Assembly (NCBI GenBank): GCA_963722065.1
Contig: CAVRMI010000007.1
Coordinates: 1,163,389-1,227,388, forward strand
Direction of reading: 5' to 3'
Source: an uncultured Thermoleophilia bacterium
GTDB taxonomy: Bacteria > Actinomycetota > Thermoleophilia > Gaiellales > Gaiellaceae
DNA: 64,000 nucleotides
The translations under genes and the position numbers were made by a program. Positions 9,200 through 33,936 of this stretch are shown here, piece after piece. The notes beneath the pieces were generated by a model, which was not told where the DNA came from, did no database searches, and worked only from the letters and a program-made list of their open reading frames with translations. Position 1 is the first letter of the stretch, and each line of letters opens with the position of its first letter.

Positions 9200-9470
9200 C
9201 GCGGTCCCGGCTGAGACGCTGAGGTAACGACCCCCTCTCGCCGATGATCCTGGACCCAACGACGCCCTGACGCTGTCGCGACCCGGGCACACGGTCAACC
9301 TCCTTCTCATAACCCAGGAGATCGTTACCCCCGGACGTACAGGGCTCGAACTGCTTTGCCGCTGCGTGGGGTGCACCTCAGGGCCGCCCGGAAGGCACGG
9401 GCCCGGGCATAAAGCACCACGAGGCCGGCCGCTCCGTGTCAGTCAGCCGCCCCTCTTCCGAGTGAGGACA

Positions 9471-9709
9471 CAGCCGGAGAAGCTGCCCACGACGAGGGCG
9501 CCTCGTTACGTCCACTGAACCTCGACCATTACCGAGGTTTTACGTGCACTTCCCAATTCGCAACTAAGGTCACAAGCGGTCGGAGCGACCGGTGGGGAGG
9601 CGTCTCCGACTCATTGACCAACTATCGGAGAGAACGGTTGGTCACTGGGCGTCTTGTGAGGTCGGGGCGGCTGACGGTTCCCCCGTCCCCCGGCCTCACA
9701 TTTGCTTCT
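9471..9709 (+). repeat. Copy 2 of the ~240-bp structured repeat
   Basis: See 649-888; same four hairpins. It is followed by ~625 bp with no convincing ORF. Confidence 0.8.
9656..9707 (+). terminator. Intrinsic-terminator-like hairpin closing repeat copy 2
   Basis: Same GTGAGGTCGGGG / CCCCGGCCTCAC stem as copy 1, followed by ATTTGCTT. Confidence 0.45.
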
Positions 9710-10204
9710 CGGCACCCGACCCTTGGCTTTGCACCCGCTAGAGAGGCGTATGGTCACCTGTTGTCCGCCTCTCAGCAGGGCTCGCTTGAGACTTGTCGGG
9801 CGCTTGACAGTCCTAACGAACTGTTCAACGAGTTCCCGGCTCCGCCATACGTACGTGGCCCAGGGTCAGACACATCGACGTCGACCCGTCGAGAGCGACG
9901 AGCCGGAGGGGGTTGCCTGCCACTCTGCGGCACGTCGCCCCCCTTGGATGTGTCCAGTTCGTCACCGAGCCTTCACTCGGTCGACCCCATCCCCATGGCT
10001 AATGTCGCAGTCGGCGTGTCCATGGGGTGACGGCGCCGCTTGCGAAGCCGGGGGCGGAGTGACGCCCTTCCTTTCCTCTGTCCTCGGCCTTCGCCCTCTT
10101 CTGACGGTCAGGCGCCTGGAGCGCATTGCTAGCGGCTTCTCTTCCTGATCGCTGCGCTGCCGTGGCCCTGAACTCCGCGAAGGCGCAGGCAGAGCAGCAG
10201 GTTG

Positions 10205-10226
10205 CCAGGAGGCCGCTTCGTGTCGT
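10205..10226 (+). repeat. Intergenic motif CCAGGAGGCCGCTTCGTGTCGT (22-nt perfect match to 16966-16987)
   Basis: Exact 22-mer shared by two unrelated intergenic regions. A second core copy lies at 10254-10264. Confidence 0.9.
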
Positions 10227-10336
10227 CCACCGCAAGGCGCTCCTGGCCGTGCGCCAGGAGGCCGCCGCTCTGTACGTCCGCCCGGAGACCGCCTCGAAAA
10301 CTCGGGGGCTGCGACCATTGCCGCGAGAGCGATGCG

Positions 10337-13300
10337 CTACATCCGGACGGCGGCCGGCAGAGCGACCGCGTCGACCCGTTCCGCCCACGGCTGAGCACCG
10401 AGCTGCACGAATAACTCACGCGCCTCGGCGAATGCTGCGGCGGGGTCCGGGCGTCCCGCGGAGACCAACACGCGGCCGAGATCGTAGAGCGCACGCGCTT
10501 GCTCGAACGGCATGTGCATCACACTGAATCTTCGCGCCGCGTCGCGAAGCAGGTTCTCGGCCTCTTCTACGTCGCCGTCGAGCGCGCATATTCGTCCCCG
10601 TGACACGACCTCGATCGCGTCGAGCAGCGGTGTCCGGTCGCCCGGGCTCGCCACCTCAACCGTCTCGATCAGCTCCTGGAGAGCCCCGCGGTCGCCGAGC
10701 TCGACCGCCGATTCGAGCGAGCGGAGAAGGAGCCATTTCGTGAACGGGTGGTAGTGGGTGAAGCCGTTGTCGAGGCAGATGCTGTAACCGCGGCGGGCGG
10801 TCTCGAGCGCCTCCGCCGCACGACCCTCGCCGAGGAGCAGGCACGCTTCGACGTGCAGCCTGCCGGCCAGCATCTGCAGCTCGGCATCGTCGAAATGACC
10901 GGAGATCGAGTCGAGCTCGTTGCGGGCGGCCGCCATGTCCCCGCGCCAGACTTGGATGCAAACCCGCATCGCGCGGTCGGCCGGTGCGCGGGTCGATGCG
11001 TCAACGTCGATGTTCTCGATCAGTGCAAGCGCTTCGTCCCAGCGCCCGAGGACGGTCAGCGACGTGCCCATGTGACCGAGCGACATCAGTTCCTCGACGC
11101 GCTCCCCGCGCCGCCTCGCGACCTCGAGTCCTTCGCGATCGATCTCGATCGCGTCGACGTGGCGATCGCGAGCTGCGAAATTGTACGAGAGGTTGTAGAG
11201 CGCACGCGAGTACGCCCGGGTCGGCTCGTGCGCCCGCCCGATCGCGATTGCCCGCTCGACGAGCGCCAGCGCCTCCTCGTGCCGGCCGCGCGTTGCCAGC
11301 ACGAGGTGCTTCGTGTTCAGCGCATCGACGAGGACGTCGCGCAGGACGAGCGACTCGGCGATCTCGAGTGCCCGCTCCACCCGCTCGGCCGCGGTGTCGA
11401 TGTCGCCGAGGAAGTAGCGGAGCCGCGCGTAGATCTCGATCAGTGTGGCCAGATCGGCGTCCGGCTCCTCGTCGGCCAGCACCTTAAGGGCCTGCTCGAG
11501 CCGCTCGGCGCCGCCGGTGAGATCGCCCGCGAACCACATCGACCAGCCGAGCTGGCCGGCGACGCGGGCGGCCCGCGAGGCTGAACCGGCCTCCTCGTGG
11601 AGCGCGATCGACTGCTCGAAGCGCTCGCGCGCCGCCTCGTAGCGGCCGCCACCGAATGCCGCGTCGCCGGCCTCTGCAAGCAGCTCCGCCCGGACGGACG
11701 GATCGTCGATCAAGTCGGCGGCCTGCACGAATGCGCGATCGGCCTCTTCGCTCGCTCCGAGCGACGCCGCCCGGCGGCCGGCTCGAACGAGCGCCTCGCC
11801 TGCCTTGGCTCGAATCTCGTCTGCGCCGGCGGCATTCGGAGCGGCGCGGTAGGCGTCGAGATAGTGCGCTGCGACGACCTCGGCGGCCTCGGCTTCGAGC
11901 ACCGATTCGAGATACTCCGCCGCGGCCAGGTGACGGACTCGGCGGTCTGCCCGCGACAGGGTGTCGTACGCGACGCGCTGGAGCAGATCCTGGAGAAAGC
12001 TGTACTGCCCGCGCTCCGGAGACCGCGGGTCGGCCTGCACCGACAGCACTTCCTTGCGCACGAGCGAGCCGAGCAGCGGCTCGAGCGCGTCGCCGGCACG
12101 GCCGCTGAGCGCGATCAGGCCGGCGAGCGAAAACGACTTCCCGAGCACGGAGGCGTCCTGCACCACCGCCCGTTCGTCGGGCGCGAGATCGTCGATGCGC
12201 GCAGCGATCAGCGCATGCAGGGTCTCCGGCACCTCGAGCGAGCTGATCGGTCCCGTGATCGAGTACCGGTCGCCCTCCGGCTTGAGCAGGCCCCGGTCGA
12301 GCAGCATGCGCACCGTCTCGACCGCGTAGAGGGGAACGCCCTGCGAGCGCTGAAGAATCTCACCGACGAGCTCGTCGGGCAGCCCCGGCACGAACCGGCT
12401 CATCAGCTCGCCCATCGCCCGGTCGGACAGAGGATCGAGCGAGAGCGTCGTCGAGCTTCGCCCGGCGCTCCCCCACCCCGGCCGCCGCTCCGCGATCTCC
12501 GGCCGGGTCAGCGCGAGGACGAAGACCGGATGGGCTCTCGACCAGTCGAGGAGATGCTCGATGAAGTCGAGCAGGCTCGCGTCAGCCCACTGCAGGTCCT
12601 CGAAGACGAGCGCGACCGGCGCAATGTCGGAAAGGCGCTCGAAGAAGAGCCGCCACGCCGAGAACAGATCCTGCCGTTCGAACGACTGCGGTTCGCCTAG
12701 GGCCAGCAGGTGCGCAAGCCGTGGCTCGACCCATGCTCGCTCCTCCTCATCGGGGATCGTCGTCGCCAGCACCGCCAGCAGCTTCGGCAGTGCCTGCTCC
12801 GCCGGCTCGTCCTCGGCGATGCGCGCCCGCATACGCACCATTTCAGCGAGCGCCCAGTACGCGACGCCGTCGCCGTAGGCGAGGCAGCGGCCGCGGTGCC
12901 ACCAGACCTCCTCGGCCAGCCCGTCGAGATATTTCTCGAACTCCCAGGCGAGCCGTGACTTGCCTATCCCCGCGATGCCGACGACGGTGAGCAGCTTGGA
13001 GACGCTGTCGTCGGCCGCACTATGGAAGAGCTCCTTGAGGAGGCGGATCTCGCGGTCGCGGCCGACGAACGGGGGCTCGAGCGCAGCCGACTTCACCGCC
13101 CCACCGCGCGACGCCGTCACCTGCAGCGCGCGCCACAGGTGCGCTACGTCGGACTTGCCTTTGAGCGTGTGCGCGCCCGCGTCGTCGTAGCCGATCGCCG
13201 CGCTCGAAGCGCGACGCGTCGCATCGTTCACGAGCACCGTGCCCGGCTCGGCCGTCGACTGGATGCGCGCCGCAGTGTTGACGAGGTCACCCGCGACCAT

Positions 13301-13840
13301 CCCCTGTCCCTCGGCGCCAAGCGTGACCGCGGCCTCGCCGGTGGCGACACCAGCGCGAAGCCTGACGTCGGCCCCGGCGTCCCCGCCGAGGTCGGCCACA
13401 GCCACCACGAGGTCGAGCGCCGCCCGCACCGCCCGCTCCGCGTCGTCCTCGCGGGCGACCGGCGTTCCCCAGACAGCCATCACCGCGTCACCGATGAACT
13501 TCTCGATCGTCCCCCCGTACCGCGCGATCAGCGTTCGCGCGGTGTCGAAGTACAGCGAGAGAAACTCACGCACCTCTTCCGGATCGCGCCCCTCCGACAG
13601 CGTCGTGAAGCCGACGAGGTCAGCGAAGAGCACTGAGACGAGGCGCCGCTCGGACGCGGCGGCGTCTTGGGCTCGAGCCGGGGCCGGTTCGAGTGCCGTC
13701 CCGCACTCGCCGCAGAAGCGAACGCCGGGCTCGTTCGGCGATCCGCACGCGCCACAGGCGCGCGAGAGCGCCGACCCGCATTCGCCGCAGAACTTGCGCG
13801 AGAGGGCGTTCTCCGCTCCGCAGGCGAGGCAGACGACCAT
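10337..13840 (-). CDS. Zinc-ribbon + class III adenylate/guanylate cyclase + AAA(STAND-like) ATPase + TPR signalling protein
   Basis: The N-terminus has a double zinc ribbon (CLACGAEN..CGECG, CGACGSPN..CGECG). Cyclase motifs VSVLFADLVGFT and KFIGDAVMAVWG are present, with a P-loop VVGIAGIGKSRLA and a long TPR-like C-terminus. Confidence 0.9.
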   Translation of the reverse strand: MVVCLACGAENALSRKFCGECGSALSRACGACGSPNEPGVRFCGECGTALEPAPARAQDAAASERRLVSVLFADLVGFTTLSEGRDPEEVREFLSLYFDTARTLIARYGGTIEKFIGDAVMAVWGTPVAREDDAERAVRAALDLVVAVADLGGDAGADVRLRAGVATGEAAVTLGAEGQGMVAGDLVNTAARIQSTAEPGTVLVNDATRRASSAAIGYDDAGAHTLKGKSDVAHLWRALQVTASRGGAVKSAALEPPFVGRDREIRLLKELFHSAADDSVSKLLTVVGIAGIGKSRLAWEFEKYLDGLAEEVWWHRGRCLAYGDGVAYWALAEMVRMRARIAEDEPAEQALPKLLAVLATTIPDEEERAWVEPRLAHLLALGEPQSFERQDLFSAWRLFFERLSDIAPVALVFEDLQWADASLLDFIEHLLDWSRAHPVFVLALTRPEIAERRPGWGSAGRSSTTLSLDPLSDRAMGELMSRFVPGLPDELVGEILQRSQGVPLYAVETVRMLLDRGLLKPEGDRYSITGPISSLEVPETLHALIAARIDDLAPDERAVVQDASVLGKSFSLAGLIALSGRAGDALEPLLGSLVRKEVLSVQADPRSPERGQYSFLQDLLQRVAYDTLSRADRRVRHLAAAEYLESVLEAEAAEVVAAHYLDAYRAAPNAAGADEIRAKAGEALVRAGRRAASLGASEEADRAFVQAADLIDDPSVRAELLAEAGDAAFGGGRYEAARERFEQSIALHEEAGSASRAARVAGQLGWSMWFAGDLTGGAERLEQALKVLADEEPDADLATLIEIYARLRYFLGDIDTAAERVERALEIAESLVLRDVLVDALNTKHLVLATRGRHEEALALVERAIAIGRAHEPTRAYSRALYNLSYNFAARDRHVDAIEIDREGLEVARRRGERVEELMSLGHMGTSLTVLGRWDEALALIENIDVDASTRAPADRAMRVCIQVWRGDMAAARNELDSISGHFDDAELQMLAGRLHVEACLLLGEGRAAEALETARRGYSICLDNGFTHYHPFTKWLLLRSLESAVELGDRGALQELIETVEVASPGDRTPLLDAIEVVSRGRICALDGDVEEAENLLRDAARRFSVMHMPFEQARALYDLGRVLVSAGRPDPAAAFAEARELFVQLGAQPWAERVDAVALPAAVRM

Positions 13841-14037
13841 CTCGACTGAGCGTAAACGGAACTACCCGAAGGCGCGAGCCATCCTTCGAACCAACCTGCT
13901 CCTAGCGCTCGACCGGCAGGTGCTCCCCACAGGAGACGCTTCGTGTGGCTACCAAGGTAGGGCAGCACTCAAGGTCGAGATCCGCGAAGCTACCCATGGC
14001 CGTCGCGGCTCATTTTCCTGGCCGGGACCTGCTGGGG

Positions 14038-14880
14038 TTAAGCCTGGCCGTCCGGGGCGGGAGCCGTTTCGAGCACCCAGATTGCTCCGTCGGCACAGTC
14101 GATGCGCGTGCCGCCTTCGGTGTCGTCGAGCCGCGTTCGACGAACGTAGACACGCTCACCGGCGAACTCGGCCAGCGGCCCACGGACACCGTCTCGTGAC
14201 GCGGCGACCCACCAGGCACGAACCTGCCGGTGCACCTCCTCGGCCGAACGGGACCAGTCGAGCTCGGCGAACTCCGGCTCGAAGAAGCCCGCGTAACTCG
14301 CCCCGTCCTCATCCTGTGGGTCACCGGCATCACCGGCTTCTGCACGCTTGAGCGCTCTTGGCAGGAGCGACGCCCAGAGGCTGAACAGGGCCGCCAGGAC
14401 GTCATCGGCGCGCTCGGCACCGCCAATCTCCACCGAGCCCTGGGCAAGGATTGGTCCCGTGTCGAAGTCGGCATCCATGCGATGGAAGCTGAAGCCAAGC
14501 TCTGGATCGCCGTTGCGCAGCGCCCAGCCGATCGGGTTCGGGCCTCGGTAGCGCGGCAGCGGCGCCGGGTGGCCGTTGACGACACCGAGTCGCGGCACCG
14601 CGAGCGCGTCCGCCGGTATTCGCACCGGGAAGCCGCCGCACAGCGCCAGATCCGGATCGAGCGCTTCCAACAACCTTGCAAATCGCGCCGGTCCGCTCGC
14701 GACCAGGACGTCCAGGCTCTGCGGTCGAACGTCGATCAGACTCGACAGCGGCACGTCCCCATAGCGGCCTCGAGGCCCCTCGGTGGTCACCACCCCGACG
14801 CACTCGTGGCCAAGCATTTTCAGCACCGCCTCCAGGCGCACCGCCAACTCAGGAACCCGCGAGAAGAGAGCCACCCGCAT
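14038..14880 (-). CDS. Formyltransferase family protein (Fmt/PurN-like fold)
   Basis: MRVALFS..., catalytic-region motif VVNGHPAPLPRYRGPNP, and a C-terminal Fmt-like domain. Start set at ATG 14880. Confidence 0.8.
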   Translation of the reverse strand: MRVALFSRVPELAVRLEAVLKMLGHECVGVVTTEGPRGRYGDVPLSSLIDVRPQSLDVLVASGPARFARLLEALDPDLALCGGFPVRIPADALAVPRLGVVNGHPAPLPRYRGPNPIGWALRNGDPELGFSFHRMDADFDTGPILAQGSVEIGGAERADDVLAALFSLWASLLPRALKRAEAGDAGDPQDEDGASYAGFFEPEFAELDWSRSAEEVHRQVRAWWVAASRDGVRGPLAEFAGERVYVRRTRLDDTEGGTRIDCADGAIWVLETAPAPDGQA

Positions 14881-14968
14881 CACGAGAGTTCTAGTCGATG
14901 CTTGCGCCCTGAGAGTTCCAGCGGCCCACCGGCAGGCTGCCTCCGGTGTGCGTGGCCCTGGCCGAAAG

Positions 14969-15053
14969 CCAGGAGGCCGCCACTCCGTGACGTCCACGAG
15001 GAGACGCCCCGCGTCGCAAGCCAGGAAGGCGCGCCGCGCAATCCAGGAGGCCG
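14969..15053 (+). repeat. Cluster of CCAGGAGGCCG-family motifs (14969, 15021, 15043)
   Basis: Three core copies in one intergenic region. The first continues ...CCACTCCGTGACGTCCAC. Confidence 0.85.
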
Positions 15054-15089
15054 TCGGCGGGCGACGGTTTAGGCTCTTACTGTGAACGT

Positions 15090-16904: not shown

Positions 16905-16965
16905 GAAGAGAGAGGTCTGGCCAGAGGCTTCGCCGAGTGGTTGCCCAAGAAACCCTGGCATCGCA

Positions 16966-16987
16966 CCAGGAGGCCGCTTCGTGTCGT
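16966..16987 (+). repeat. Intergenic motif CCAGGAGGCCGCTTCGTGTCGT (22-nt match to 10205-10226)
   Basis: Exact 22-mer, here followed by TGA, which gives a GTG-TCG-TGA mini-ORF 7 nt after AGGAGG. Confidence 0.9.
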
Positions 16988-17035
16988 GAACCAGGGGGCC
17001 CGGGAAACACACGCGACCGTCGAGGGGGGTCAGCG

Positions 17036-18448: not shown

Positions 18449-18534
18449 CGGGCGTCGGACATCGGGGATTCTCACACGCGTGGGGTGGCGACGCGGGGCG
18501 GCGCCGATGCGCCTGCCCCGCGTCCTCTCGCTCT

Positions 18535-19800: not shown

Positions 19801-19906
19801 GTTTCATAGCCTCCTTCGGTTGGCCGCTCAACTCGTGCGGCGGCGTCTTGAGGTCGAGGCTATGAAGCGACCAGCGGGTTGAGATCAGTAGTGATACGGA
19901 GCCGAG

Positions 19907-22944: not shown

Positions 22945-23020
22945 CCAGGAGGTCGCTCCGTCTCCGTCACCCGAGGCCGACTCCGATGTGCCTATGGGCT
23001 GGTCGCAGCCCAGGAGGCCG
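22945..23020 (+). repeat. Two CCAGGAGG(T/C)CG motif copies (22945, 23010)
   Basis: The first carries the CATAAC prefix also seen at 9307, 26334, 27645 and 31589. Confidence 0.8.
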
Positions 23021-23100
23021 TCGCGGCGCGAGTGACGTCGAAAGCACCTCTTCGCGACGATCTGGATTCCGTGATCGGGAGCGCGAAATGTCGGAGTGCT

Positions 23101-24246: not shown

Positions 24247-24638
24247 TCTGGAAATGAATAGCGCTAGCGCAGCCCGTGCGGACGGTGTCGAGCTCGACTG
24301 CTGCGTCGAGCTCGGCGTGAGCCCGGGACCGCCGCCTAGCCGACTTCGGTGGGTCCACCCGGAGGCCGCTTGAGAGGGTGTCCCGGGCAGGACACCAGGA
24401 GGCCGACCAGCGTTTCGGGTGCTCGTGGGTCGACTGTGACCGTGCCGGCTGCCAGAGCACGCGCCGGCATTTCACGACGCGTGAGGTGGTCGTGGAGGCA
24501 ATTTTCGAGGTCGACACGGCGGTCCGTGAGTGGGCTTCGCGCGCGGAGAGCCAGCGCGGATGCGAACATGAGGTTGTGGGGGTACCGCCACCGAGCGGAG
24601 AGCCTCGTTTGGCGGGACGCTCCGGTCGCCCGAGGTGG

Positions 24639-25613: not shown

Positions 25614-25785
25614 TAACGAAGCGACGTCAACCAGCTCCTCCTTTAGGGCGGATCTCCGGTCATGAACCAAAGGCCGCCGCGAGTTGACGCAACCAGGACG
25701 CGGCACGGGCGAAGTTCTCCAAACGATTCACGGGGTTAGGCTCTCGCTGCCAACGGCACGCCGCCCGGGCGAGGTTCTGTCCCCG

Positions 25786-26238
25786 TTAACGAACGTGCCA
25801 GCCGCTGCCGAGCGCGTTCATGTGCGGCCAGGTGCGGAACTTGCAGATGATCTTGTCGCCGTACTTCGCGGTCTCGGCGCCAGGATCGGGCCAGGAGGCC
25901 GCCCAGCCCTCGGTTTTGGCCATTGGGCGACCGGTGAGCCGCTGAAAGTCTGACAAGCAGATCGACCTGGCGATTGCGTTCGCGCTGCTGTTGGACGGAG
26001 GTGAGTGATGGCCCCAACCACCGTGCCCGATGGCGTACACCTCCTGATCGTGCGCCGGATCCGAACACGGAACGACGAGCAGCGTCTTCCCGGGAGCGCC
26101 GTGTGGCGGAACAACCAGACACTGCCGCGGATGAACTGCCAGATAGAAAACATGGGTACCGACGGCATCCGCGCTTCCGGTACCGACAAGAACGATTGCG
26201 AGCACTGCAGGCAGGATCAGAGCATGAGCCCGACGCAT
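25786..26238 (-). CDS. Small secreted hypothetical protein
   Basis: Signal peptide MRRAHALILPAVLAIVLVGTGSADA. The mature part contains cysteines, and an SD-like GAAGGGA lies upstream. Confidence 0.6.
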   Translation of the reverse strand: MRRAHALILPAVLAIVLVGTGSADAVGTHVFYLAVHPRQCLVVPPHGAPGKTLLVVPCSDPAHDQEVYAIGHGGWGHHSPPSNSSANAIARSICLSDFQRLTGRPMAKTEGWAASWPDPGAETAKYGDKIICKFRTWPHMNALGSGWHVR

Positions 26239-26338
26239 CCCGATCGTCCCTTCTCCCTGCCGGCCAGCATCTCGCTCGAGACTCTCCCACGAGACCGTCC
26301 GAAATTCAACGCGAGAGTCAATCCGCTTCGTGTCATAA

Positions 26339-26409
26339 CCCAGGAAGCCGCCGCTTTTTCGGTGTGCAACCAGGAGGCTGGCTGCTTCGGGGACTCAACC
26401 AGGAGGCCA
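26339..26409 (+). repeat. Cluster of three CCAGGA(A/G)G(C)C motif copies (26339, 26368, 26399)
   Basis: CATAACCCAGGAAGCCG, AACCAGGAGGCTG and AACCAGGAGGCCA. The last is followed by an ATG 7 nt downstream. Confidence 0.85.
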
Positions 26410-26878
26410 GAAGATGCTGAGCCTACGTGGCACGCCGCCCTGCACGCCTCCATGCTGCACGTCATCAAGATTGGGTTCGTTTCGCAGAATCGATGTCTAG
26501 GTCTTGTTGTCTATATTGACAACGATCTGCGCCACGCCATGCGAATCCCTCGATCGAGGGAGGTGTTTTCGAGAAGTACCAGAACCCGCACGACTCGCAG
26601 AATCTCGCGGCCGGGCCGTTGCCGTGGCCGCGCAGATTGTCACCACATGACCCTAGACCCCCCCTCCCGCGCAACGACAACCGCCGCCTACGAGTCTCCG
26701 ATGTCAGGTTCTCCTCAAGCCGGCAGGCCGTTTTGCCGACCGGGGGTCTTACCAGAAGCATTTCAGGGCCGTGGTATCGGCCGAATGTGCCCACTTCTGG
26801 GTTTTGGAGCAATCGTTCCCCGAAGCAAGAGGCAGGGCGAGAGGCCGAGTCCGACCGAGCGGTTACCCCTAAACGGTT

Positions 26879-27574
26879 ATGGCGACCAACAAACAAATCG
26901 AAGCGAACCGGCTGAATGCCAAGAAATCGACTGGTGCTCGAACTCCAGAGGGAAAGACGCGGTCATCGATGAACGCGCTCAAACACGGCGCCCTTGCTCG
27001 GGACGTCGTTCTTCCCAACGAGAGCGAGGAAGAGTTCAGATCGTTCAATCTCGGATTGGTTCGTGAACTGCAACCCGTCGGAGAACTCGAGGAACTCCTC
27101 GTCGATCTGATCGCAGCCTACGCCTGGCGACTTCGGCGCGTCGCCCGCGTCGAGAAAGGGCTACTCGTCCGATACGTCTACGGACACGTCGCAGAAGACG
27201 CCCGCGAAGATGCGTACCACGCTTTCAACGGGCTTGGAGTGTGGGGCTCGGCCCCCCGACCGGCAGCGAAGGCACTAAGCGAGATCGATCCAGAACAAGT
27301 AACGCCGGAGGAACTCAAAGATGCGGAAGAGGCAGCAGCCCTCGAACGCGTTGACAAAGCAGAGGAAATTCGCAGCCACCCCGATGCGCTCCTTGGCCGG
27401 GCCTTCCTAACCGATGCACGGGAAACCGATGCGTTCTCGAAGCTCTCGCGCTACGAGACGCACATCCAACGTTCCCTGTCTCGAGCTCTCGGCGAACTAG
27501 AGCGCCTCCAGGCGGGCCGCAGCTGGGCCGAGACCACTGATCAAAGCTACCCAGATGCGCTTAGTCCAGGCTGA
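26879..27574 (+). CDS. Conserved hypothetical protein (basic N-terminus, helical)
   Basis: 231 aa: MATNKQIEANRLNAKKSTGARTPEGKTRSSMNALKHGALA... I recall this N-terminal pattern from uncharacterised proteins of several phyla. No function is known to me. Confidence 0.65.
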   Translation: MATNKQIEANRLNAKKSTGARTPEGKTRSSMNALKHGALARDVVLPNESEEEFRSFNLGLVRELQPVGELEELLVDLIAAYAWRLRRVARVEKGLLVRYVYGHVAEDAREDAYHAFNGLGVWGSAPRPAAKALSEIDPEQVTPEELKDAEEAAALERVDKAEEIRSHPDALLGRAFLTDARETDAFSKLSRYETHIQRSLSRALGELERLQAGRSWAETTDQSYPDALSPG

Positions 27575-27641
27575 AGCTGGCGTTTCTGCAGCCGTGCCCG
27601 GACATTGGCCGCTTCGCGATTCCCACCAGAGGCGGCTGTCT

Positions 27642-27688
27642 GGTCATAGCCCAGGAGGCCGACATGCCGGGCGTGGCACCAGGAGGCC
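27642..27688 (+). repeat. 47-nt perfect direct repeat (partner 31586-31632) containing two CCAGGAGGCC cores
   Basis: GGTCATAGCCCAGGAGGCCGACATGCCGGGCGTGGCACCAGGAGGCC is identical at both sites. Further cores follow at 27721 and 27758. Confidence 0.9.
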
Positions 27689-27858
27689 CGGCGCCCCACC
27701 GCGTTGAACCTGGCCGTCCACCCGGAGGCCGCTGGAATGGACCGCTCAGACGTAACACCAGGAGGGCGGCGCGCGGCGTTCGCGCTGACGGATTGCGTTG
27801 AGGCGTATCGCGACCCGCCCTGCTGGACTTCCAATCCCAAGCTCGACCGTTCGATCCC

Positions 27859-30845
27859 TCACGGCTCACTGAGCTCCGCGAGTCGCTCGCGGGTGCGACG
27901 GGCGAGCGGGATGATCTGTTTGCGCTCGTAACAGGCGAGTGCCTCGCGGAAAGCAGCCACGGCCGCATCGTGGCGATCTGCAGCTGCAAGCACTTCGCCG
28001 AGGTCGAAGAGGGCGTCGCCCTTCAGGCCGAGGGCGTCGCTCCGCGCCACGATCTCGACAGCTTCGCGGGCGAGTCGTTCGGCTTCTGCGTGGCTACCGC
28101 GGCTCGCCTCGACGAGCGCCTGTACCTGCCGCCAGATCGTTCGCGCCCACATGTCCGAGGGGTCGGCGAGCGAGCGTCCCTGCTGGGCGAGTGGTTCTGC
28201 CTCGCCGTGGCGGCCCAGCCTACAGAGAACACGGCCGAGCATCGGCCCGTATCCCGACAGGTTGCCCTGCCAGCCTTGCGCCTCAAGGTAGTCGCAGAAC
28301 TCTCGTAGCTGGAGGACCGCTCTCTCGTCGTCACCGGCAAGGAGTGTGACCTCATGCTGTAGGGCGCCCGGGGGAAGGCCAAGCTCGGATCTTCTCTCGG
28401 CGGCCGCGCGAGCGATCCGCGACGCCTCGTCGAGACGGTCGAGCATCGCCAGCAGCCAGGCCCGCCGATCATCGAACGCCGGCGACAACGACGGCTCCCC
28501 GGGCACGAGGTCATCGAGGGCTCGCAGTGCCTGTCCGGCCGGACGCGGCCCTAGTGTGAGCGCGACCGGTAGCCCGTAGAAGTGGGTCGTTCTGATGCCG
28601 GCGAGCTGGGAATGGTGGAGCGCGTGCTCGGCCGCGCGCGCCATGTCCTCGAATTGGCCGCGCCAACTCGCGACGCCCGCGAGAGCGCCCCAGATGTATG
28701 CAAGGCCGGCGTGGTCTGCGCGCGCTTCGAGCAGCGGGAGCGCCCGTTGCGCCAACCGCTCCAGTTCGTCGGCCGAGCTTGATCCGGAATGAAGGCCGAC
28801 ATATGACGCCCAGGTGCGGGCGAGCAACTCACCTGCCTCGTCGCCGGCGGCGTGGGCGCGTTCCGCCGCGGCTGCGGCGATCGTCGCGGACGCCGTCGAC
28901 CCGCCGCGCCAGCGCATCACGTTCGAGAGATCGAGCTCAAGCCGGACGTCCAACCGGAGGGGCCGGGTGAGGGTCAGCGCCCGCTCGAGAAACCCTGCGG
29001 CAGCCGGGTCGTCACCGCGCCACTCGGCCCTGCGCCCCGCAGCGACCAGCCGGGCAGCAGCCTGCTCTGTCAGCGCGGGTTCCGGTCGGCCAAGCTCGCC
29101 GAGGTAACGGGCGGCCTGCTCGAGGTGGTAGCCGAGGATCTCGTCAAGTTCGACAAGGTCTTGGCCATGGGTTTGGAGCCAGCCTGCGAAGCGTCGGTGC
29201 AGGTCGGCGCGCACGGACTTGGGGAGGGCCTCGTAGGCGGCGTCGCGGATCAGCAGGTGGCGGAAGCGGTACGCGTCGTCATCGGGGAAGATGCGGTTGG
29301 TCGGGGCGGACGAGCTCCTTGCGGATCAGCGAGACGAGCCGCCGGTCGACGTCTCCGTCGCCTCGTCCCGAGCGCCTGCGACCGCGCCGCGGTGGAAGAC
29401 GCGGCCTTCGACCGAGCCGCGCTCGAGCACGGCCCGTTCGGCCGGGTCGAGTTGGTCGAGCCGGGCGGCGAGGAGCGCCTGGATCGTCGGTGGCACGTCC
29501 ACCTTCCCGTCGTGCCTTCGCGGACGAGGGCGAGCATCTCCTCGAGGAAGAGCGGGTTGCCCTCGGCGGCCTGGACGATCCGCTCCGCTCAACTCGTCCG
29601 GAGACCTCCCGAGCTTGCCGATCAGTTCCGCGGACTCGGCGGCGTCGAGTGGCTCGAGCAGCACGGTGGTCGCGTTCCACTTGCCGCCGCCCCACGACTG
29701 CCTGCGCTCCAGCAGGTCGGGCCGGGCCATGCAGAGGAGCAGGATCGGCGCGTCGCGGGCGAGGTCGGCCACGTGCTCGACCAGATCGAGCAACGTCTCC
29801 TCCGCCCAGTGGAGATCGTCGAACACGCAGACCAGCGGCTGCGGTCTGCGCCTGCTGTTCGAGCAGCTTGCGAAACCCCCAGGCGATCTCCTCGGCCGAC
29901 GCCAGCTCGTCGGTCTCGCCCAGCAACGCCCGCAGCGGCCGCGCTGCGTCCCCGTGCGGCAGCGCACCGAGCTGCTTGAGGATCTCCACCACCGGCCAGT
30001 AGGTGATGCCCTCGCCGTACGACAGGCAGCGGCCCGCGAACAAGCTGCGCGTCGACACCGTGCGAGGAACTCGGCCGCCAGCCGCGACTTCCCAACTCCC
30101 GCCGAGCCGAGCACCGTGAATAGCTGACAGGAGTGGTCATGCACCGCCTGCGGCGAACGCATCGCGCGAGCCGCCGCAACTCGGTGCCGCGGCCCACCAT
30201 CGGCGTCCCGAACTGCCGATCCAAGCCGGCCGCCACCGCGAGCAGACGGAACGCCGCCACCGGCTCGCGCCTTCCCCTTCAGCGTCAGCGGCGCCACCGG
30301 CTCCGACATCGACCGCTGTCGCTCACGAGCTCGTGCGTCTACTCGCCGATCAGCACCTCGCCCGGGGCCGCCGCCTGCTCCAGCCGGGCCGCGACGTTGA
30401 CGGCGTCGCCGGTAGCAAGCCGCTCCTCCGTCCCCGTCACGACCTCTCCGGTGTTGACACCGATCCGGCCTTGCGATGCCCGAGTTCCGGCAGCGCGTCG
30501 CGCATCTCCACCGCCGCGCGGCACGCCCGAAGCGCATCGTCCTCGTGCAGCCACCGGCACCCCGAAGACCGCCATCACCGCATCGCCGATGAACTTCTCC
30601 ACCGTGCCGCCATGCCGCTCGATGATCCCCTGCATCCGCTCGAAGTAACGAGCAAGCAGCTCCCTCAGCGCCTCCGGATCAGTCGACTCGCCAAGCGCAG
30701 TCGAACCAGTCACATCACAAAACAGCGCCGTGACGGTCTTGCGCACCTCACGTGCCGGAGAGGCGGCAGCGAGCGCCGCAGCGCACGACATACAGAACCG
30801 CGCCTCGTCTGGGTTCTGGTGACCGCAGCTCGCGCAGACCAACAC
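27859..30845 (-). pseudogene. Frameshifted paralog of the zinc-ribbon/cyclase/AAA/TPR protein
   Basis: Homologous pieces are spread over all three frames. The zinc ribbon and cyclase lie at 30845-30339 and include an internal out-of-frame patch. The P-loop LGSAGVGKSRLAAEFLA and CLSYGEGITYWPVVEILKQL occur in other frames. The TPR tail 29214-27859 is intact. Confidence 0.8.
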
Positions 30846-31014
30846 CAGCCGAGGCTAGAACATCCACAGACCGGCAGCCACACACAACACCGCTCGCTTT
30901 GGCCCACTGTCGGCGCTAGGCCGAGATGAAGGCGCGCGTCGCTGCAGTCCGGGCGGCGATCCGAACGCCTCAGCTACCGCCGGCGTCTGGGCATCAGCAA
31001 GGGGTGCCTCCGCC

Positions 31015-31281
31015 TCAGTCGCTCGCCGCAGACCGGGCTGAACTGGAACTCGCCTTCGGCCACGTCATGACCGTTGCTGCAACACCGCATGAGGTGACCC
31101 TAGACCTGAACTCACCGCACCGGAGACGCTCATGCTGCGATCCATGCCGCGATCGGATGACCGGGGGCTTCTGTGTGTGGCTGGAGACGTCAGCTCCGGC
31201 GCTGCCGGCGAAGACAGCTGCCAGGACGACGATCATCCCGACGACGACGAAAGCGGCTGCGTTGCGGATCGTGGCGGACAT
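31015..31281 (-). CDS. Possible small membrane-anchored protein
   Basis: ATG 31281 lies 7 nt after GAGGAG. The N-terminus MSATIRNAAAFVVVGMIVVLAAVFAGSAGA is hydrophobic. No homology recognised. Confidence 0.35.
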   Translation of the reverse strand: MSATIRNAAAFVVVGMIVVLAAVFAGSAGADVSSHTQKPPVIRSRHGSQHERLRCGEFRSRVTSCGVAATVMTWPKASSSSARSAASD

Positions 31282-31585
31282 CTGCGATCTCCTCTTCGGT
31301 CGTAGTGCCCACAAGACGGCCCACGACGCAGGCCCCTTCCATGTGTGTGACGAGCGCGACACATCGTGCTCCTCCCGGAACAGCAGGTATCTGAACGCCT
31401 ACCTGCATCTGCTGCCGGGCGACGCGGGCCAAGCGCCCGACTCGTTCGATCACCTACAGCCAGGAGCCGAAGAACAGAAGGCCGCTCCGTGACGTCCACT
31501 ACAACCGCGCGGGAGGCTGGCGCAAGCTGACGGTTCGAGTCCGTTGGGGGTGGTCGCGTTGACCAAACCAGGGGGCGCCGCTCAG

Positions 31586-31632
31586 GGTCATAGCCCAGGA
31601 GGCCGACATGCCGGGCGTGGCACCAGGAGGCC
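31586..31632 (+). repeat. 47-nt perfect direct repeat (partner 27642-27688)
   Basis: See 27642-27688. Confidence 0.9.
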
Positions 31633-31727
31633 GCCAGATCGGGGGGCCGCTAAGAAGCTCTAACTGAATGAAGGGACCCGTTCGTCGGTAGCGAAGTCCG
31701 TCGGCACCTGTCGTCAATCTCGGAGGG

Positions 31728-32147
31728 GTGTCGATGAGGGCGAAGCCGTGGGAGGTGCCGGACGGGTTGTGGGAGCGGATCGAGCCGCTGTTGCCGACGA
31801 GGCCGCGGCGGTTCCGCTATCCGGGTCGCAAGCCGTTCGATGACCGCCTCGCGTTGCAGGGGATCTTGTTCGTGTTGCACACCGGGATCGGCTGGGAGCA
31901 TCTGCCGCAGGAGCTCGGCTTCGGTTGCGGGATGACGGCCTGGCGGCGGCTGCGGGCCTGGCAGCAGGCCGGCGTCTGGGAGAAGCTGCACGCGTTGCTG
32001 CTCGCCGAGCTGCACGCCGCCGACCAGCTCGAGTGGGAGCGTGCCGTCGCGGACGGCAGCCATATCCAGGCGAAAAAGGGGGCGCGAAAACGGGTCCCAG
32101 CCCCGTTGACCGCGGCCGGGCGGGCAGCAAGCACCACCTGCTCGTAG
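31728..32147 (+). CDS. IS5-family transposase, orfA (N-terminal DNA-binding part)
   Basis: KPWEVPDGLWERIEPLLP...GRKPFDDRLALQGILFVLHTGIGWEHLP..GMTAWRRLRAWQQAGVW is the typical DUF4096/IS5 N-terminus. Confidence 0.8.
   Translation: MSMRAKPWEVPDGLWERIEPLLPTRPRRFRYPGRKPFDDRLALQGILFVLHTGIGWEHLPQELGFGCGMTAWRRLRAWQQAGVWEKLHALLLAELHAADQLEWERAVADGSHIQAKKGARKRVPAPLTAAGRAASTTCS
32070..32084 (+). promoter_or_regulatory. Probable programmed -1 ribosomal frameshift site of the IS transposase
   Basis: GCGAAAAAGGGGGCG: an A5/G5 run exactly where orfA homology ends and -1-frame orfB homology begins. Confidence 0.5.
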
Positions 32148-32713
32148 ACGGCGGCGGCGTCCCGCTCGCCTGGACGCTGACCGGCGGCAACCGCAACGAC
32201 GTCACCCAGCTGATCGAGCTGCTCGACCGCGTCCCGCCCGTCCGCGGACGCGTCGGCCGGCCGAGACGACGGCCGACGATGCTGCTCGCCGACCGCGGCT
32301 ACGACCACGACAAGTACCGCCGCCTCGTCCGCAAGCGAGGCATCAAACCGGTGATCGCCCGCCGCAACACGGAACACGGGACCGGCCTGGGCCGCCACCG
32401 CTGGGTCGTCGAACGCACCTTCGCCTGGCTCCACAACCGCCGCCGACTCCTCATCCGCACCGACCGCCGCGACGACATCCACGAAGGCTTCCTCGCCCTC
32501 ACCTGCTGCCTCATCTGCTGGAGCCGGCTGGAGACCTCATTGAGTAGGACCTCTAAGCCTGGGCGGTCGGAGCGGGAGCCGTCTCGAGCACCCAGATTGC
32601 TCCGCCGGCGCAGTCGATGCGCGTGCCGCCTTCGGCGTCGTCGAGTCGCGTTCGCCGAACGTAGATGGCATGTTGGAAACCACGCTCTAGCCGCAGGCGA
32701 TCGCCCGTACTAG
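32074..32713 (+). CDS. IS5-family transposase, orfB (DDE catalytic part, reached by -1 frameshift)
   Basis: GPSPVDRGRAGSKHHLLVDGGGVPLAWTLTGGNRNDVTQL...ADRGYDHDKYRRLV...RWVVERTFAWLHNRRRL. The ORF has no stop inside the element and reads through the right end to 32713. Confidence 0.75.
32555..32668 (-). pseudogene. 3'-terminal fragment (~37 codons) of a formyltransferase paralog
   Basis: IYVRRTRLDDAEGGTRIDCAGGAIWVLETAPAPTAQA* matches the end of 14038-14880 (VYVRRTRLDDTEGGTRIDCADGAIWVLETAPAPDGQA*). DNA similarity stops abruptly at ~32668. Confidence 0.7.
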
Positions 32714-32921
32714 TTTCACTCGACCGACGGTTCTCTCCTTTTACCCTTCCTCGGAGAGCGTCGGCCCGGGGGCAGCAGCGGCTACGCGAGCGCTATGGGA
32801 GCGTGCGTAGCCGCGCCGCCCTATTGCGCCGCGGCACTTGGACTCGGCTCACCACTTGCTTGCATTCGGGAGAGCGCGTAGCGTCGGCTGCGTGTCGAGT
32901 TGAGCGGCCGAGGGGTCTCTA

Positions 32922-33851
32922 TTGACGATTGAGCTGATCGAGGGCACGCGAGACACCGCGAGCGTGTCGAGGATCGTTTCCGAGGTGCTTCGCTGGATGA
33001 CGTTCGATCCAGACGCGATCGAGCATATGCGAGCGACGAGTCCGACCTGGCGCGACTGGATCGGGCTGCTGGACGGGGAGCCGGTCGGTGTCGGTGGCTG
33101 CGGCGTCGGCGCCGGGATGGAAGAGAGCAGCGCAGTCTTTGCATCGTTGTGTGTGCTTCCGGCAGCCCGCCACCGAGGTGTCGGAGGGACGCTGTACCGC
33201 CGTGTCTCCGAGTACGCCCGCGAACTCGGTCGGGAGCAGTTGGAGCTGTTCTCGTTCTCCGACGATCCAGACTGCGATGGTTTCGCCGCACGACACGGAT
33301 TCACCATCGTGATGCGCGCCCGGGGTCTTCGCCTGAAACTCGAGGACTGTCCACGCCCGGAGGTGACGCCTCCTGCGGGAGTGACGATCACGACGCTCGC
33401 AGAGCGACCGGATCTCGGTTACGGAGTCTGGGAGACCGCAGGCGAGGCGCTGCCGGACATTCCCTACGACAGCGACGTACCGCCGCAGCCTGGAACCTAT
33501 GAGCAGTTCGCAGCCCGGCAACTCGCCGGGCCCCGATACATCCCCGAAGCGACCTTCGTCGCCCTCGAAGGCGAGCAGGTCGTCGGCTACGGGAAGCTCG
33601 GCTGGATCAACCGCTCGGCGGGGATCGCCGACCACGACATGCTTGCCGTCCGCCGAGCCTGGCGCGGCCGTGGCATCGCCCAGTCACTCAAGGCCGCTCA
33701 GATCGCCTGGGCGCTCGACAACGGACTCGTCGAGCTTCGCACCGGCAACGAGGAACGAAACACGGCCGCCCGTGCCGTCAACGCCCACTTCCCCTACACG
33801 CCGATGCCAGACGGACTCGCGTTCCGCGGCCCCTGCGCAGCCGTGGAGTAA
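32922..33851 (+). CDS. GNAT-family N-acetyltransferase (two GNAT-like halves)
   Basis: Acetyl-CoA motifs LCVLPAARHRGVGGTLY and LAVRRAWRGRGIAQSLK. TTG start. Confidence 0.8.
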   Translation: MTIELIEGTRDTASVSRIVSEVLRWMTFDPDAIEHMRATSPTWRDWIGLLDGEPVGVGGCGVGAGMEESSAVFASLCVLPAARHRGVGGTLYRRVSEYARELGREQLELFSFSDDPDCDGFAARHGFTIVMRARGLRLKLEDCPRPEVTPPAGVTITTLAERPDLGYGVWETAGEALPDIPYDSDVPPQPGTYEQFAARQLAGPRYIPEATFVALEGEQVVGYGKLGWINRSAGIADHDMLAVRRAWRGRGIAQSLKAAQIAWALDNGLVELRTGNEERNTAARAVNAHFPYTPMPDGLAFRGPCAAVE

Positions 33852-33883
33852 CCCGCTGATTCGTTCGGGCCTCGGGTCACAAG

Positions 33884-33936
33884 CCAGGAGGCCGTGTTAG
33901 TCATGCGCCCGTCGGTCGGCTGGAACTAGGAGGTCG
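33884..33936 (+). repeat. CCAGGAGGCCG plus a degenerate CTAGGAGGTCG motif pair
   Basis: These are the last + strand-oriented copies before the low-GC polysaccharide locus. Confidence 0.8.

What the first reader, a model, noticed from the sequence alone, without database searches (positions are those of the whole stretch)
9313..33936. Strand-oriented, intergenic-only motif family CCAGGAGGCCG (strong SD-like core) that flips orientation next to the integrase
I find more than 20 copies of the core (C/A)CCAGGAGGCCG or one-mismatch variants, and every one lies between genes.

+ strand copies are at 9313, 10205, 10254, 14969, 15021, 15043, 16966, 22945, 23010, 24358, 24395, 26339, 26368, 26399, 27651, 27679, 27721, 27758, 31460, 31595, 31623, 33884 and 33926. 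These keep the + orientation regardless of the orientation of flanking genes.

The only reverse-oriented copies are at 50124, 51315, 51347 and 51370, around the integrase. None was seen inside the low-GC polysaccharide locus.

Subfamilies exist:
- a CATA(A/G)C prefix at five sites
- a 22-nt perfect repeat CCAGGAGGCCGCTTCGTGTCGT (10205 and 16966)
- a 47-nt perfect repeat (27642 and 31586)
- a downstream module ...CCGTGACGTCCAC (14980, 31488, and at the 5' edge of both 240-bp elements)

In at least 7 copies a GTG or ATG follows AGGAGG by 7-11 nt, opening very short ORFs (for example GTG-TCG-TGA at 16981).

The motif could be a REP/BIME-like element, a protein-binding or replichore-polarised signal, decoy or mini-ORF translation initiation sites, or decay products of the 240-bp element.
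Basis: seen in the sequence. Interest (0 to 1): 0.65.

Follow-up and report, generated by a model that had tools for sequence, protein, structure and literature searches.

The report
tRNA-derived integrase site repeats between gene modules
The repeated CCAGGAGGCCG motif is most likely the conserved core of recombination (att) sites, copied from part of a tRNA-Ala gene, that a tyrosine integrase left at the borders of DNA modules stacked one after another; the resemblance to a ribosome-binding site is a coincidence.

Summary
CCAGGAGGCCG (≤1 mismatch) occurs 31 times against about 3 expected. All 23 exact CCAGGAGG copies lie outside called genes. 24 copies are on + between 3999 and 33894 and 4 are on − around the integrase.

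The motif is not a genome-wide REP-like element and not an RNA signal. Cluster folds are unremarkable, no consistent mini-ORFs follow the core, and several copies are antisense to both neighbouring genes.

The core equals positions 39-49 of tRNA-Ala(CGC): the 3' strand of the anticodon stem, the variable loop and the first T-stem base. Its best pairing partner lies exactly 7 nt upstream, which is anticodon-arm geometry.

More distant homologues of the window's integrase (69-71% identity) sit at tRNA-Ala(CGC) genes, next to displaced tRNA fragments that end in this core. Close homologues (95-96%) are again flanked by same-strand units.

Related Thermoleophilia MAGs carry the same gene modules in different orders. 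Homology blocks end at the core far more often than chance predicts.

Best reading: an array of decayed att junctions from serial integration (accretion) of modules. This is a new member of a known kind, comparable to the tandem ssrA islands of Dehalococcoides. No intact tRNA anchor was found, and current recombination activity is inferred, not shown.

The parts
3999..4009 (+). single att-like unit (exact core)
8495..8547 (+). two units (1-mismatch cores at 8495 and 8537), downstream of the XRE gene module
9314..9427 (+). two degenerate units (9314 with 2 mismatches, 9417 with 1), after the HicA/HicB module
10205..10264 (+). two units with exact cores. The first starts the 22-nt repeat shared with 16966.
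14969..15053 (+). three units (14969, degenerate 15021, 15043). This is the junction between the formyltransferase and MOSC modules. The MOSC module shared with L119 begins at 15040, 3 nt upstream of the 15043 core, so the block includes that core.
16966..16976 (+). Unit at the junction between the MOSC and BBE-oxidase modules. Its arm+loop CCTGG-CATCGCA is the best match to the tRNA-Ala anticodon arm. The upstream flank is shared with L119 and the downstream flank with L113.
22945..23020 (+). two units lying between two − strand genes, so antisense to both
24358..24405 (+). two units (CCCGG variant and exact core)
25891..25901 (+). Exact core without a good arm, in a stretch with only an unsupported ORF. 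Family membership is uncertain.
26340..26409 (+). three tandem units at 29-30 nt spacing
27651..27768 (+). four tandem units. The first two belong to the 47-nt perfect repeat shared with 31586.
31474..31633 (+). Three units (degenerate 31474, 31595, 31623). The flank downstream of 31623 equals the flank downstream of the core at L113 5230.
33884..33936 (+). Two units (33884 exact, 33926 degenerate with the AGGTC variant), ending the GNAT module. The homology block with L113 stops at the last base of the 33884 core.
50124..50134 (-). Unit about 70 nt downstream of the integrase stop codon. Its arm 'ccctttgccccaa' is conserved in L234 and L319.
51315..51380 (-). Three tandem units directly upstream of the integrase gene. 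They are conserved in L234, L235, L237 and L319.
50212..51201 (-). Tyrosine integrase, 329 aa, with the catalytic R..HxxR..H..Y residues intact. It is co-oriented with the units that flank it. It is not XerC/D and not an integron integrase.

Best explanation
Each copy is the core of an att-type recombination junction.

Origin of the core. CCAGGAGG(C/T)CG is the 3' strand of the anticodon stem, the variable loop and the first T-stem base (positions 39-49) of tRNA-Ala(CGC). That gene is the integration target of the tyrosine-integrase family encoded at 50212-51201.

How the arrays formed. DNA modules of one to three genes were integrated one after another (tandem accretion), and each event left another copy of the site. 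Integrative recombination always produces direct repeats. The junctions therefore all point the same way whatever the orientation of the genes inside the modules, and they lie only between genes.

Two arrays. The window holds two such arrays, + at 4-34 kb and − at 50-51.4 kb. They face each other across a variable polysaccharide locus.

Later rearrangement. Recombination between junctions, or loss of modules, then shuffled or deleted modules. Tandem 'empty' units at 23-42 nt spacing may be what such losses leave behind, but no step of that was tested.

Shown:
- sequence identity of the core to the tRNA segment, and the anticodon-arm geometry;
- integrase homologues located at tRNA-Ala genes, next to displaced fragments that end in the core;
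- ends of homology blocks that coincide with the core.

Inferred:
- this integrase made, and can still use, these junctions;
- the modules are or were mobile.
For: 1. Core matches tRNA-Ala(CGC).
- The tRNA-Ala(CGC) gene in L236 reads ...CCTGG ATCGCAC CCAGG AGGTC GCCGG TTCGAGC...
- The unit at window 16953-16976 reads CCTGG CATCGCA CCAGG AGGCC G.
- Of 12 tRNAs compared with the 71 units, tRNA-Ala scores best: mean 20.8 against 12.2-15.6 for the others.

2. Anticodon-arm geometry. Across 71 units the best 5-bp partner of CCAGG lies exactly 7 nt upstream. 37 of 71 units have ≥4/5 pairs at loop length 7, against 0-25 at other loop lengths.

3. Integrase homologues at tRNA-Ala.
- L241 (P0008, 69% in the alignment): [tRNA-Ala 5' fragment]-int-...-[intact tRNA-Ala(CGC)].
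- L240 (P0006, 69% in the alignment): directly upstream of int lies a tRNA-Ala 5' fragment that ends ...CCTGGATGCTGACCAGGAGGCCG, after which the sequence diverges. An intact tRNA-Ala gene lies 3.7 kb away.
- L236: tRNA-Ala lies 2.7 kb from int.

4. Close integrase homologues.
- The 95-96% homologues in L234, L235 and L237 have same-strand units directly upstream of int; L234 and L235 also have one downstream.
- L319 holds a full-length copy (about 91% nucleotide identity) and an 84% partial copy in tandem, each module bounded by units.
- L318 (88% homologue) has only a single 1-mismatch core.

5. Mosaic structure.
- The MOSC, formyltransferase, BBE-oxidase, GNAT and XRE modules occur in different orders in the window, L113 and L119.
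- The flanks upstream and downstream of a core assort independently.
- Each gene keeps its orientation relative to the core in every genome.
- L119 carries an extra gene bounded by cores between the formyltransferase and MOSC modules.
- 7 of 23 homology-block ends fall within 5 nt of a core (2% expected), and 11 within 60 nt (8% expected).

6. Uniform orientation. Every array has a single orientation: window 24+ and 4−, L113 6, L119 8, L215 3, L216 5, L223 6, L234 5, L235 8.

7. Low copy number. Subtype patterns scanned over 185,579 species representatives return only these few Thermoleophilia loci, so the family is clustered rather than genome-wide.

8. Published precedent. Dehalococcoides has over a dozen direct repeats of the ssrA 3' end bounding tandem islands, some of which lack integration genes (PMC3146451). 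Displaced tDNA fragments mark island ends in Islander (PMC4383910).
Against: - No intact tRNA-Ala gene lies at either end of the arrays, in the window or in any close-relative locus.
- Only 11-13 nt match the tRNA convincingly. The D-arm, T-arm and acceptor parts are not recognisable with confidence, and Rfam's tRNA model finds nothing in the window at E≤1.
- The usual left arm is TCGGG, which pairs with CCAGG only through a G·U pair and a G·A mismatch.
- Most modules carry no integrase, and the left array (30 kb) has none.
- Tandem units 23-42 nt apart are not what simple serial integration predicts.
- Units were found by searching for the core, so its apparent invariance is partly ascertainment bias.
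- The close-homologue loci are orthologous regions and count as one evolutionary observation.
- The source genome itself could not be scanned.
Confidence: 0.65

Rival explanations
1. An integron-like gene-capture platform that is active now. A non-IntI tyrosine integrase would use the tRNA-derived sites to excise, capture and reorder integrase-less gene cassettes, so the array would be more than passive scars of old integrations.
For: - Modules of 0.8-6 kb are bounded by directly oriented cores, and most lack an integrase.
- The same modules occur in different orders with their orientation relative to the site preserved.
- A HicAB toxin-antitoxin module sits between unit clusters.
- Contigs of related MAGs break inside or near the arrays. 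L119 ends within a unit.
Against: - There is no evidence of recent movement, such as identical cassettes at different sites within one genome.
- The integrase scores far below the integron-integrase cut-off: 70.6 bits against 265.
- There are no attC-like palindromes.
- Modules contain large regulators, which presumably carry their own promoters.
- Module identities between genomes are 86-96%, which is compatible with slow rearrangement.
Confidence: 0.2
2. A REP/BIME- or MITE-like short interspersed repeat spread by a HUH (RAYT / IS200-IS605-type) transposase through single-stranded DNA. This would give an orientation bias tied to the direction of replication.
For: The copies are intergenic, short and clustered. 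All copies in a region share one strand. A weak stem-loop overlaps the core.
Against: - Cluster folds have no significant folding energy.
- There is no alternating orientation.
- No Y1/HUH transposase is encoded in the window.
- Relatives hold only a handful of loci per genome.
- This reading does not explain the tRNA identity or the link to the integrase.
Confidence: 0.07
3. A polar chromosomal signal, such as a KOPS-like FtsK guide or a Ter-like fork barrier. The two opposed groups would converge on the replication terminus.
For: - Two groups of opposite orientation converge on 34-50 kb.
- Gene orientation also converges near 47-48 kb.
- Cumulative GC skew changes slope around 37-46 kb.
Against: - No dif-like site is present, and the window has no 28-mer with 20 or more A/T bases.
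- GC skew is weak and inconsistent across loci.
- The skew minimum and the convergence of gene orientation give opposite readings.
- Known polar motifs are not excluded from genes and are not tandem.
- Orientation relative to contig ends is mixed: in L235 the units point inward.
Confidence: 0.04
4. An RNA-level element that exploits the strong SD-like AGGAGG: a ribosome standby or decoy site, a mini-ORF initiator, or a 5' stabiliser.
For: AGGAGG is a perfect SD core. About 12 copies have a start codon 5-12 nt downstream.
Against: - About half the copies have no start codon, and the ORFs are 2-64 codons long with nothing in common.
- Several copies are antisense to both neighbouring genes.
- Many lie downstream of stop codons or between convergent genes.
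- There is no Rfam hit and no significant structure.
Confidence: 0.04

Closest known systems
Tandem genomic islands at tRNA/tmRNA genes bounded by displaced tDNA fragments (Islander-type islands; the Dehalococcoides ssrA islands, PMC3146451, PMC4383910)
   Same: - A site-specific integrase targets a t(m)RNA gene.
- Every integration leaves a direct repeat of a gene segment.
- There are arrays of a dozen or more same-orientation repeats within tens of kb, in a hypervariable region.
- Some modules lack integration genes.
- A conserved nucleotide difference separates the repeat copies from the real gene (AGGCC here, AGGTC in the tRNA).
   Different: - The recombinase here is a tyrosine integrase, whereas Dehalococcoides uses the serine recombinase DsiB.
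- The repeat comes from the anticodon-stem/variable-loop segment, and the fragments next to int carry the 5' side of the tRNA, not its 3' end.
- No intact tRNA anchor is in view.
- Modules are small.
- Units often occur as 2-4 tandem copies 23-42 nt apart.
- Two arrays face each other.
Accretion and cis-mobilizable elements (CIMEs) of ICESt1/ICESt3-type elements (reviewed in PMC5704250)
   Same: Integrase-less modules are flanked by att sites that an integrase supplied by a neighbouring element could use. Elements are stacked by site-specific recombination.
   Different: CIMEs are few per locus and were shown experimentally. Here there are 13 or more junction clusters and no functional data.
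Integron cassette arrays and CALINs
   Same: Directly oriented recombination sites separate gene modules whose order differs between relatives. Array stretches lack an integrase. A toxin-antitoxin module is present.
   Different: - The integrase is not of the IntI type.
- The sites are not attC hairpins.
- Modules hold 1-3 genes, including 900-1,170-aa regulators, in both orientations.
REP/BIME elements
   Same: Short, GC-rich, intergenic and clustered.
   Different: No real palindrome, no alternating orientation, low copy number, and linked to an integrase and a tRNA sequence.

Membership tests
tDNA-targeting integrase islands (Islander-type, tandem accretion) | A tyrosine (or serine) integrase gene lies next to an att junction | tested here: met
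   The integrase at 50212-51201 has three units directly upstream and one about 70 nt downstream. L234, L235, L237 and L319 also have units directly upstream of int, and L234, L235 and L319 have one downstream.
tDNA-targeting integrase islands (Islander-type, tandem accretion) | The direct repeats are identical to a segment of a tRNA/tmRNA gene | tested here: met
   The core equals tRNA-Ala(CGC) positions 39-49 apart from T47C. The arm/loop geometry is 5 bp / 7 nt. tRNA-Ala is the best match among 12 tRNAs. The match is short, at 11-13 nt.
tDNA-targeting integrase islands (Islander-type, tandem accretion) | An intact target tRNA gene lies at one end of the island or array | tested here: not met
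   ARAGORN finds no tRNA in the window or in L113, L119, L215, L216, L223, L234, L235, L237, L318 or L319. The feature is met only at the more distant integrase homologues L240, L241 and L236. The arrays may continue beyond the sequence held.
tDNA-targeting integrase islands (Islander-type, tandem accretion) | Repeats mark the boundaries of horizontally exchanged segments (breaks in synteny) | tested here: met
   7 of 23 homology-block ends lie within 5 nt of a core, against 2% expected. Flanks on the two sides of a core assort independently.
tDNA-targeting integrase islands (Islander-type, tandem accretion) | The integrase recombines these sites | not testable with these tools
   This needs a recombination or binding assay.
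Integron | IntI-type integrase | tested here: not met
   TIGR02249 scores 70.6 bits against a cut-off of 265, and NF011946 scores 37.6 against 435.
Integron | attC sites: 57-141-nt imperfect palindromes with R''/L''/L'/R' boxes | tested here: not met
   Units are about 26-32 nt, are arranged as direct repeats, and the clusters show no significant folding.
REP/BIME | Imperfect palindromic unit, often in alternating orientation, with hundreds of copies genome-wide | tested here: not met
   - Fold z-scores range from -1.2 to +1.3 for 10 of 11 clusters.
- All copies in a locus share one strand.
- Relatives hold only 1-2 loci per genome for two subtype patterns.
REP/BIME | Associated RAYT (Y1 HUH transposase) | tested here: inconclusive
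   None was found among the window proteins scanned. The rest of the genome was not available.
KOPS/Ter-like polar chromosomal motif | Orientation tied to the direction of replication and converging on dif | tested here: inconclusive
   No dif-like site is in the window. GC skew is weak and inconsistent. A whole-genome position is not available.

The most novel reading that the evidence does not exclude
The arrays are a working integron-like gene-capture system in uncultured soil Thermoleophilia. A non-IntI tyrosine integrase, using att sites that evolved from the anticodon-arm/variable-loop segment of tRNA-Ala and are no longer attached to a tRNA gene, would excise, capture and reorder integrase-less gene cassettes next to a hypervariable polysaccharide locus.
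Probability: 0.2. Interest if true: 0.7.

Novelty: new member of a known kind. Interest (0 to 1): 0.4.

Why it matters
The result replaces an apparent 'oriented ribosome-binding-site motif' with an ordinary cause: scars, and possibly still usable sites, of integrase-mediated accretion.

It also identifies a very plastic region in an uncultured soil actinobacterial lineage where regulators, oxidoreductases, a toxin-antitoxin pair and a polysaccharide locus are exchanged as modules.

In practice, the core could be tried as a marker for delimiting such arrays in metagenome assemblies, whose contigs in this sample tend to end in or near the arrays.

Tried and rejected
- Rfam at gathering thresholds and at E≤1 found nothing.
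- RNA folding of 11 clusters gave one significant z-score only.
- The mini-ORF tabulation showed no consistent ORF.
- A search for dif, by consensus with 3 mismatches, an ATAA-N6-TTAT pattern, and AT-rich 28-mers, found nothing.
- GC skew compared with motif strand in six regions was inconsistent.
- The first two-core scan of genome contigs was swamped by coding repeats such as (RQEAEERA)n.
- The JGI metagenome scan gave 76 hits, none from this family.
- The look-up of encoding contigs failed for two window proteins, which were not on record, so the source contig could not be extended.
- The idea that repeats always point toward contig ends was dropped, because in L235 they point inward.
- blastn-short of the whole tRNA-Ala against the window found no larger tRNA remnant.
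- An alignment of right flanks to the tRNA 3' half shows T-arm-like starts (GCCGCTCCGAGCC, GCTGCTTCGGGG) in only a subset of units. This is suggestive and not conclusive.
Full report
**1. The observation**

CCAGGAGGCCG with at most one mismatch occurs 31 times in the window. Dinucleotide-preserving shuffles give a mean of 3.2 and a maximum of 8.
- 24 hits are on the + strand between 3999 and 33884.
- 4 hits are on the − strand, at 50124-50134 and 51315-51380.
- Three one-mismatch hits (11597−, 20936−, 48290+) lie inside long ORFs and look like chance.

A codon-usage gene map, supported by Pfam, puts about 47 kb of the 64 kb in genes. All 23 exact CCAGGAGG copies lie outside those genes.

Five copies were missed: 3999, 8495, 8537, 9417 and 25891.

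**2. What the motif is not**

- Rfam finds nothing, even at E≤1, and the window has no tRNA gene.
- RNA folds of 11 clusters are no more stable than shuffles, with one exception.
- About half the copies have no start codon 3-15 nt after AGGAGG. Where one exists, the ORFs are 2-64 codons long and share nothing.
- Orientation is not set by transcription. The copies at 22945/23010 lie between two − strand genes. In related loci, several copies are antisense to both neighbours (L119 8869/8899; L215 3113 and 5737/5766).

**3. Distribution**

The window comes from an uncultured Thermoleophilia (Actinomycetota) lineage.
- The closest species representative, L119 (MAG MFD05537.bin.1.28, MOSC protein 96% identical), has 8 units on one strand.
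- 79 more distant relatives carrying the same MOSC gene have essentially none.
- Pattern scans of 185,579 species representatives return the family only in four Thermoleophilia MAGs (L113, L215/L223, L216, L119), with one or two loci each.
- A JGI metagenome scan returns no member of the family.

The family is therefore lineage-specific, low in copy number and regionally clustered. It is not genome-wide. The source genome itself could not be scanned.

Within every locus all units share one strand.

**4. Units mark module boundaries**

blastn between the window and the relatives shows a mosaic. The formyltransferase, MOSC, BBE-oxidase, XRE and GNAT genes recur in different orders and neighbourhoods. 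Each gene keeps its orientation relative to the units.

At single-nucleotide resolution:
- The flank upstream of the 16966 core (the MOSC 3' end) is shared with L119. The flank downstream (the BBE-oxidase module) is shared with L113 and not with L119.
- The homology block shared with L119 that carries the MOSC module starts at 15040, 3 nt upstream of the 15043 core. Further upstream the two sequences differ.
- L119 has an extra gene bounded by cores between the formyltransferase and MOSC modules.
- The GNAT block shared with L113 stops at the last base of the 33884 core. The sequence that follows the core in L113 equals the sequence downstream of a different window core, at 31623.

Of 23 homology-block ends, 7 lie within 5 nt of a core (2% expected) and 11 within 60 nt (8% expected). 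Crossovers have therefore occurred in or at the core.

**5. The link to the integrase**

The gene at 50212-51201 (−) is a generic tyrosine recombinase with its catalytic residues intact. It scores far below the cut-offs for XerC/D and for integron integrases. It is co-oriented with the − units. Three units lie directly upstream of it and one lies about 70 nt downstream.

Close homologues on ENA contigs:
- The 95-96% homologues in L234, L235 and L237 also have same-strand units directly upstream of int, and L234 and L235 have one downstream. A polysaccharide locus of differing gene content follows in each.
- L235 has eight intergenic units over 9.7 kb, with genes in both orientations.
- L318 (88% homologue) has only a single 1-mismatch core upstream of int.
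- L319 has a full-length integrase (about 91% nucleotide identity to the window's gene) and an 84% partial copy in tandem, each bounded by units.

**6. The link to tRNA-Ala**

More distant homologues of the integrase sit at tRNA-Ala(CGC) genes. Their identities are 66-71% in the multiple alignment and 68-73% in the search table.
- L241: [tRNA-Ala 5' fragment]-int-two genes-[intact tRNA-Ala(CGC)], all co-oriented.
- L240: directly upstream of int there is a fragment, TCTATAGCTCAGCTGGGAGAGCACCTGGATGCTGACCAGGAGGCCG. It ends with exactly the window's core, including the C variant, and the sequence diverges after it. An intact tRNA-Ala gene lies 3.7 kb away.
- L236: tRNA-Ala lies 2.7 kb from int.

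The tRNA reads GCG CCTGG ATCGCAC CCAGG AGGTC GCCGG TTCGAGC. The core is therefore the 3' strand of the anticodon stem, the variable loop and nucleotide 49.

Supporting measurements:
- In 71 family units, the best 5-bp partner of CCAGG lies exactly 7 nt upstream. 37 of 71 units have ≥4/5 pairs at that loop length.
- The unit at 16953-16976 (CCTGG CATCGCA CCAGG AGGCC G) is nearly the tRNA arm.
- tRNA-Ala scores best of 12 tRNAs against the units.
- A subset of right flanks resembles the T-arm (GCCGCTCCGAGCC, GCTGCTTCGGGG), but this is weak.

The Shine-Dalgarno look of AGGAGG is thus inherited from the tRNA sequence.

**7. Mechanism**

Shown:
- identity of the core to the tRNA segment, and the arm geometry;
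- integrase homologues located at tRNA-Ala, next to displaced fragments that end in the core;
- same-strand arrays;
- module boundaries at cores.

Inferred:
- Modules carrying a copy of the site were integrated serially by this integrase family (accretion).
- Integrative recombination yields direct repeats. This explains the uniform strand and the intergenic location.
- Later recombination between junctions, or loss of modules, reordered or deleted modules. The tandem 'empty' units (spacing 23-42 nt) may be remnants of such losses, but this was not tested.
- The units directly upstream of int may also serve as arm-type binding sites.

The 'flip' in orientation reflects a second, inverted array that contains the integrase gene. 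The two arrays face each other across the low-GC polysaccharide locus.

**8. Weak points**

- No intact tRNA-Ala is seen at the end of any close-relative array.
- Only 11-13 nt match the tRNA with confidence.
- The commonest left arm, TCGGG, pairs imperfectly with CCAGG.
- The 30-kb left array has no integrase.
- Tandem units are not predicted by simple serial integration.
- Units were ascertained through the core.
- The close-homologue loci are a single evolutionary sample.

**9. Comparison with known systems**

The closest described system is the set of tandem islands downstream of ssrA in Dehalococcoides. There, over a dozen 20-bp direct repeats of the gene's 3' end bound islands within 100 kb, and some islands lack integration genes and were interpreted as cis-mobilizable elements (PMC3146451). 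The general case is Islander-type tDNA islands with displaced fragments (PMC4383910) and accretion/CIMEs (PMC5704250).

This case differs in several respects:
- the recombinase class and the target (a tyrosine integrase and tRNA-Ala);
- the sublocation of the repeat (anticodon stem and variable loop, with 5'-side fragments next to int);
- the missing tRNA anchor;
- the small modules and the tandem units.

It fails the defining tests for integrons and for REP/BIME elements. I file it as a new member of a known kind. An active integron-like cassette system remains the most novel reading not excluded (about 0.2).

**10. Verdict**

Interest is moderate, at 0.4.

Noticed in passing
window 646-888 and 9468-9709: A 244-nt repeat with two copies at 93% identity. 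It folds very stably (+ strand -112 kcal/mol, z -4.5) and ends in a GC-rich hairpin followed by a U-rich tail. It has no Rfam match and is absent from the related loci held. It begins with a segment like the right arm of a unit (CCTCGTGACGTCCAC). It is a candidate structured RNA or non-coding module.
   Followed up: partly
window 27859-30845 (-): A cyclase / AAA_16 / TPR gene is split into three ORFs (30339-30845, 29326-30537, 27859-29214). It appears to be a pseudogenised paralogue of the intact 1,167-aa gene at 10337-13840.
   Followed up: partly
window 32554-32665 and 31728-32713: A 112-nt copy (91% identical) of the 3' end of the formyltransferase gene (14039-14150) lies between an IS5-family insertion sequence (DUF4096 + DDE_Tnp_1 ORFs) and the GNAT gene. 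In L113 the whole formyltransferase gene neighbours GNAT, so this is a rearrangement scar.
   Followed up: partly
window 8739-9199: HicA (8739-8933, −) and a HicB-like antitoxin (8981-9199, +) form a 0.8-kb module between two unit clusters. The two genes are arranged divergently, which I believe is unusual for a HicAB pair (my own knowledge, not checked here).
   Followed up: no
L319 6542-10693: Two integrase modules lie in tandem, one full-length (329 aa) and one truncated (230 aa). Each is preceded by units plus the conserved 'aacccgtctgtttaagccaaa' leader. Units follow the first integrase gene; they lie between it and the second module.
   Followed up: partly
L238 about 1990-2040: Next to a 71%-identical integrase lies a perfect 10-bp inverted repeat, GACCTCCTGG...CCAGGAGGTC, followed by a T-arm-like GGGTTCGAATC. 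ARAGORN calls no tRNA here. It may be an unusual tRNA-like gene or an att site.
   Followed up: no
L251, L261, L274, L280, L284, L294, L315 (JGI metagenome contigs): An unrelated tandem repeat family, ACAGGCCAGGAGGCCTGTCCCAC, which is palindromic around AGGA and has a period of about 28-29 nt. It recurs in several metagenome contigs, some with shared accession prefixes.
   Followed up: no
window 35-47 kb; L234, L235, L237, L318, L319 downstream of int: The low-GC polysaccharide-synthesis locus next to the integrase has different gene content in every contig examined. It is a hypervariable surface-polysaccharide region flanked by the arrays.
   Followed up: no
L119 17968-18004: The 368,776-bp MAG contig ends inside a repeat unit. 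Several other array loci lie within about 60 kb of contig ends, so the arrays seem to break long-read metagenome assemblies.
   Followed up: partly
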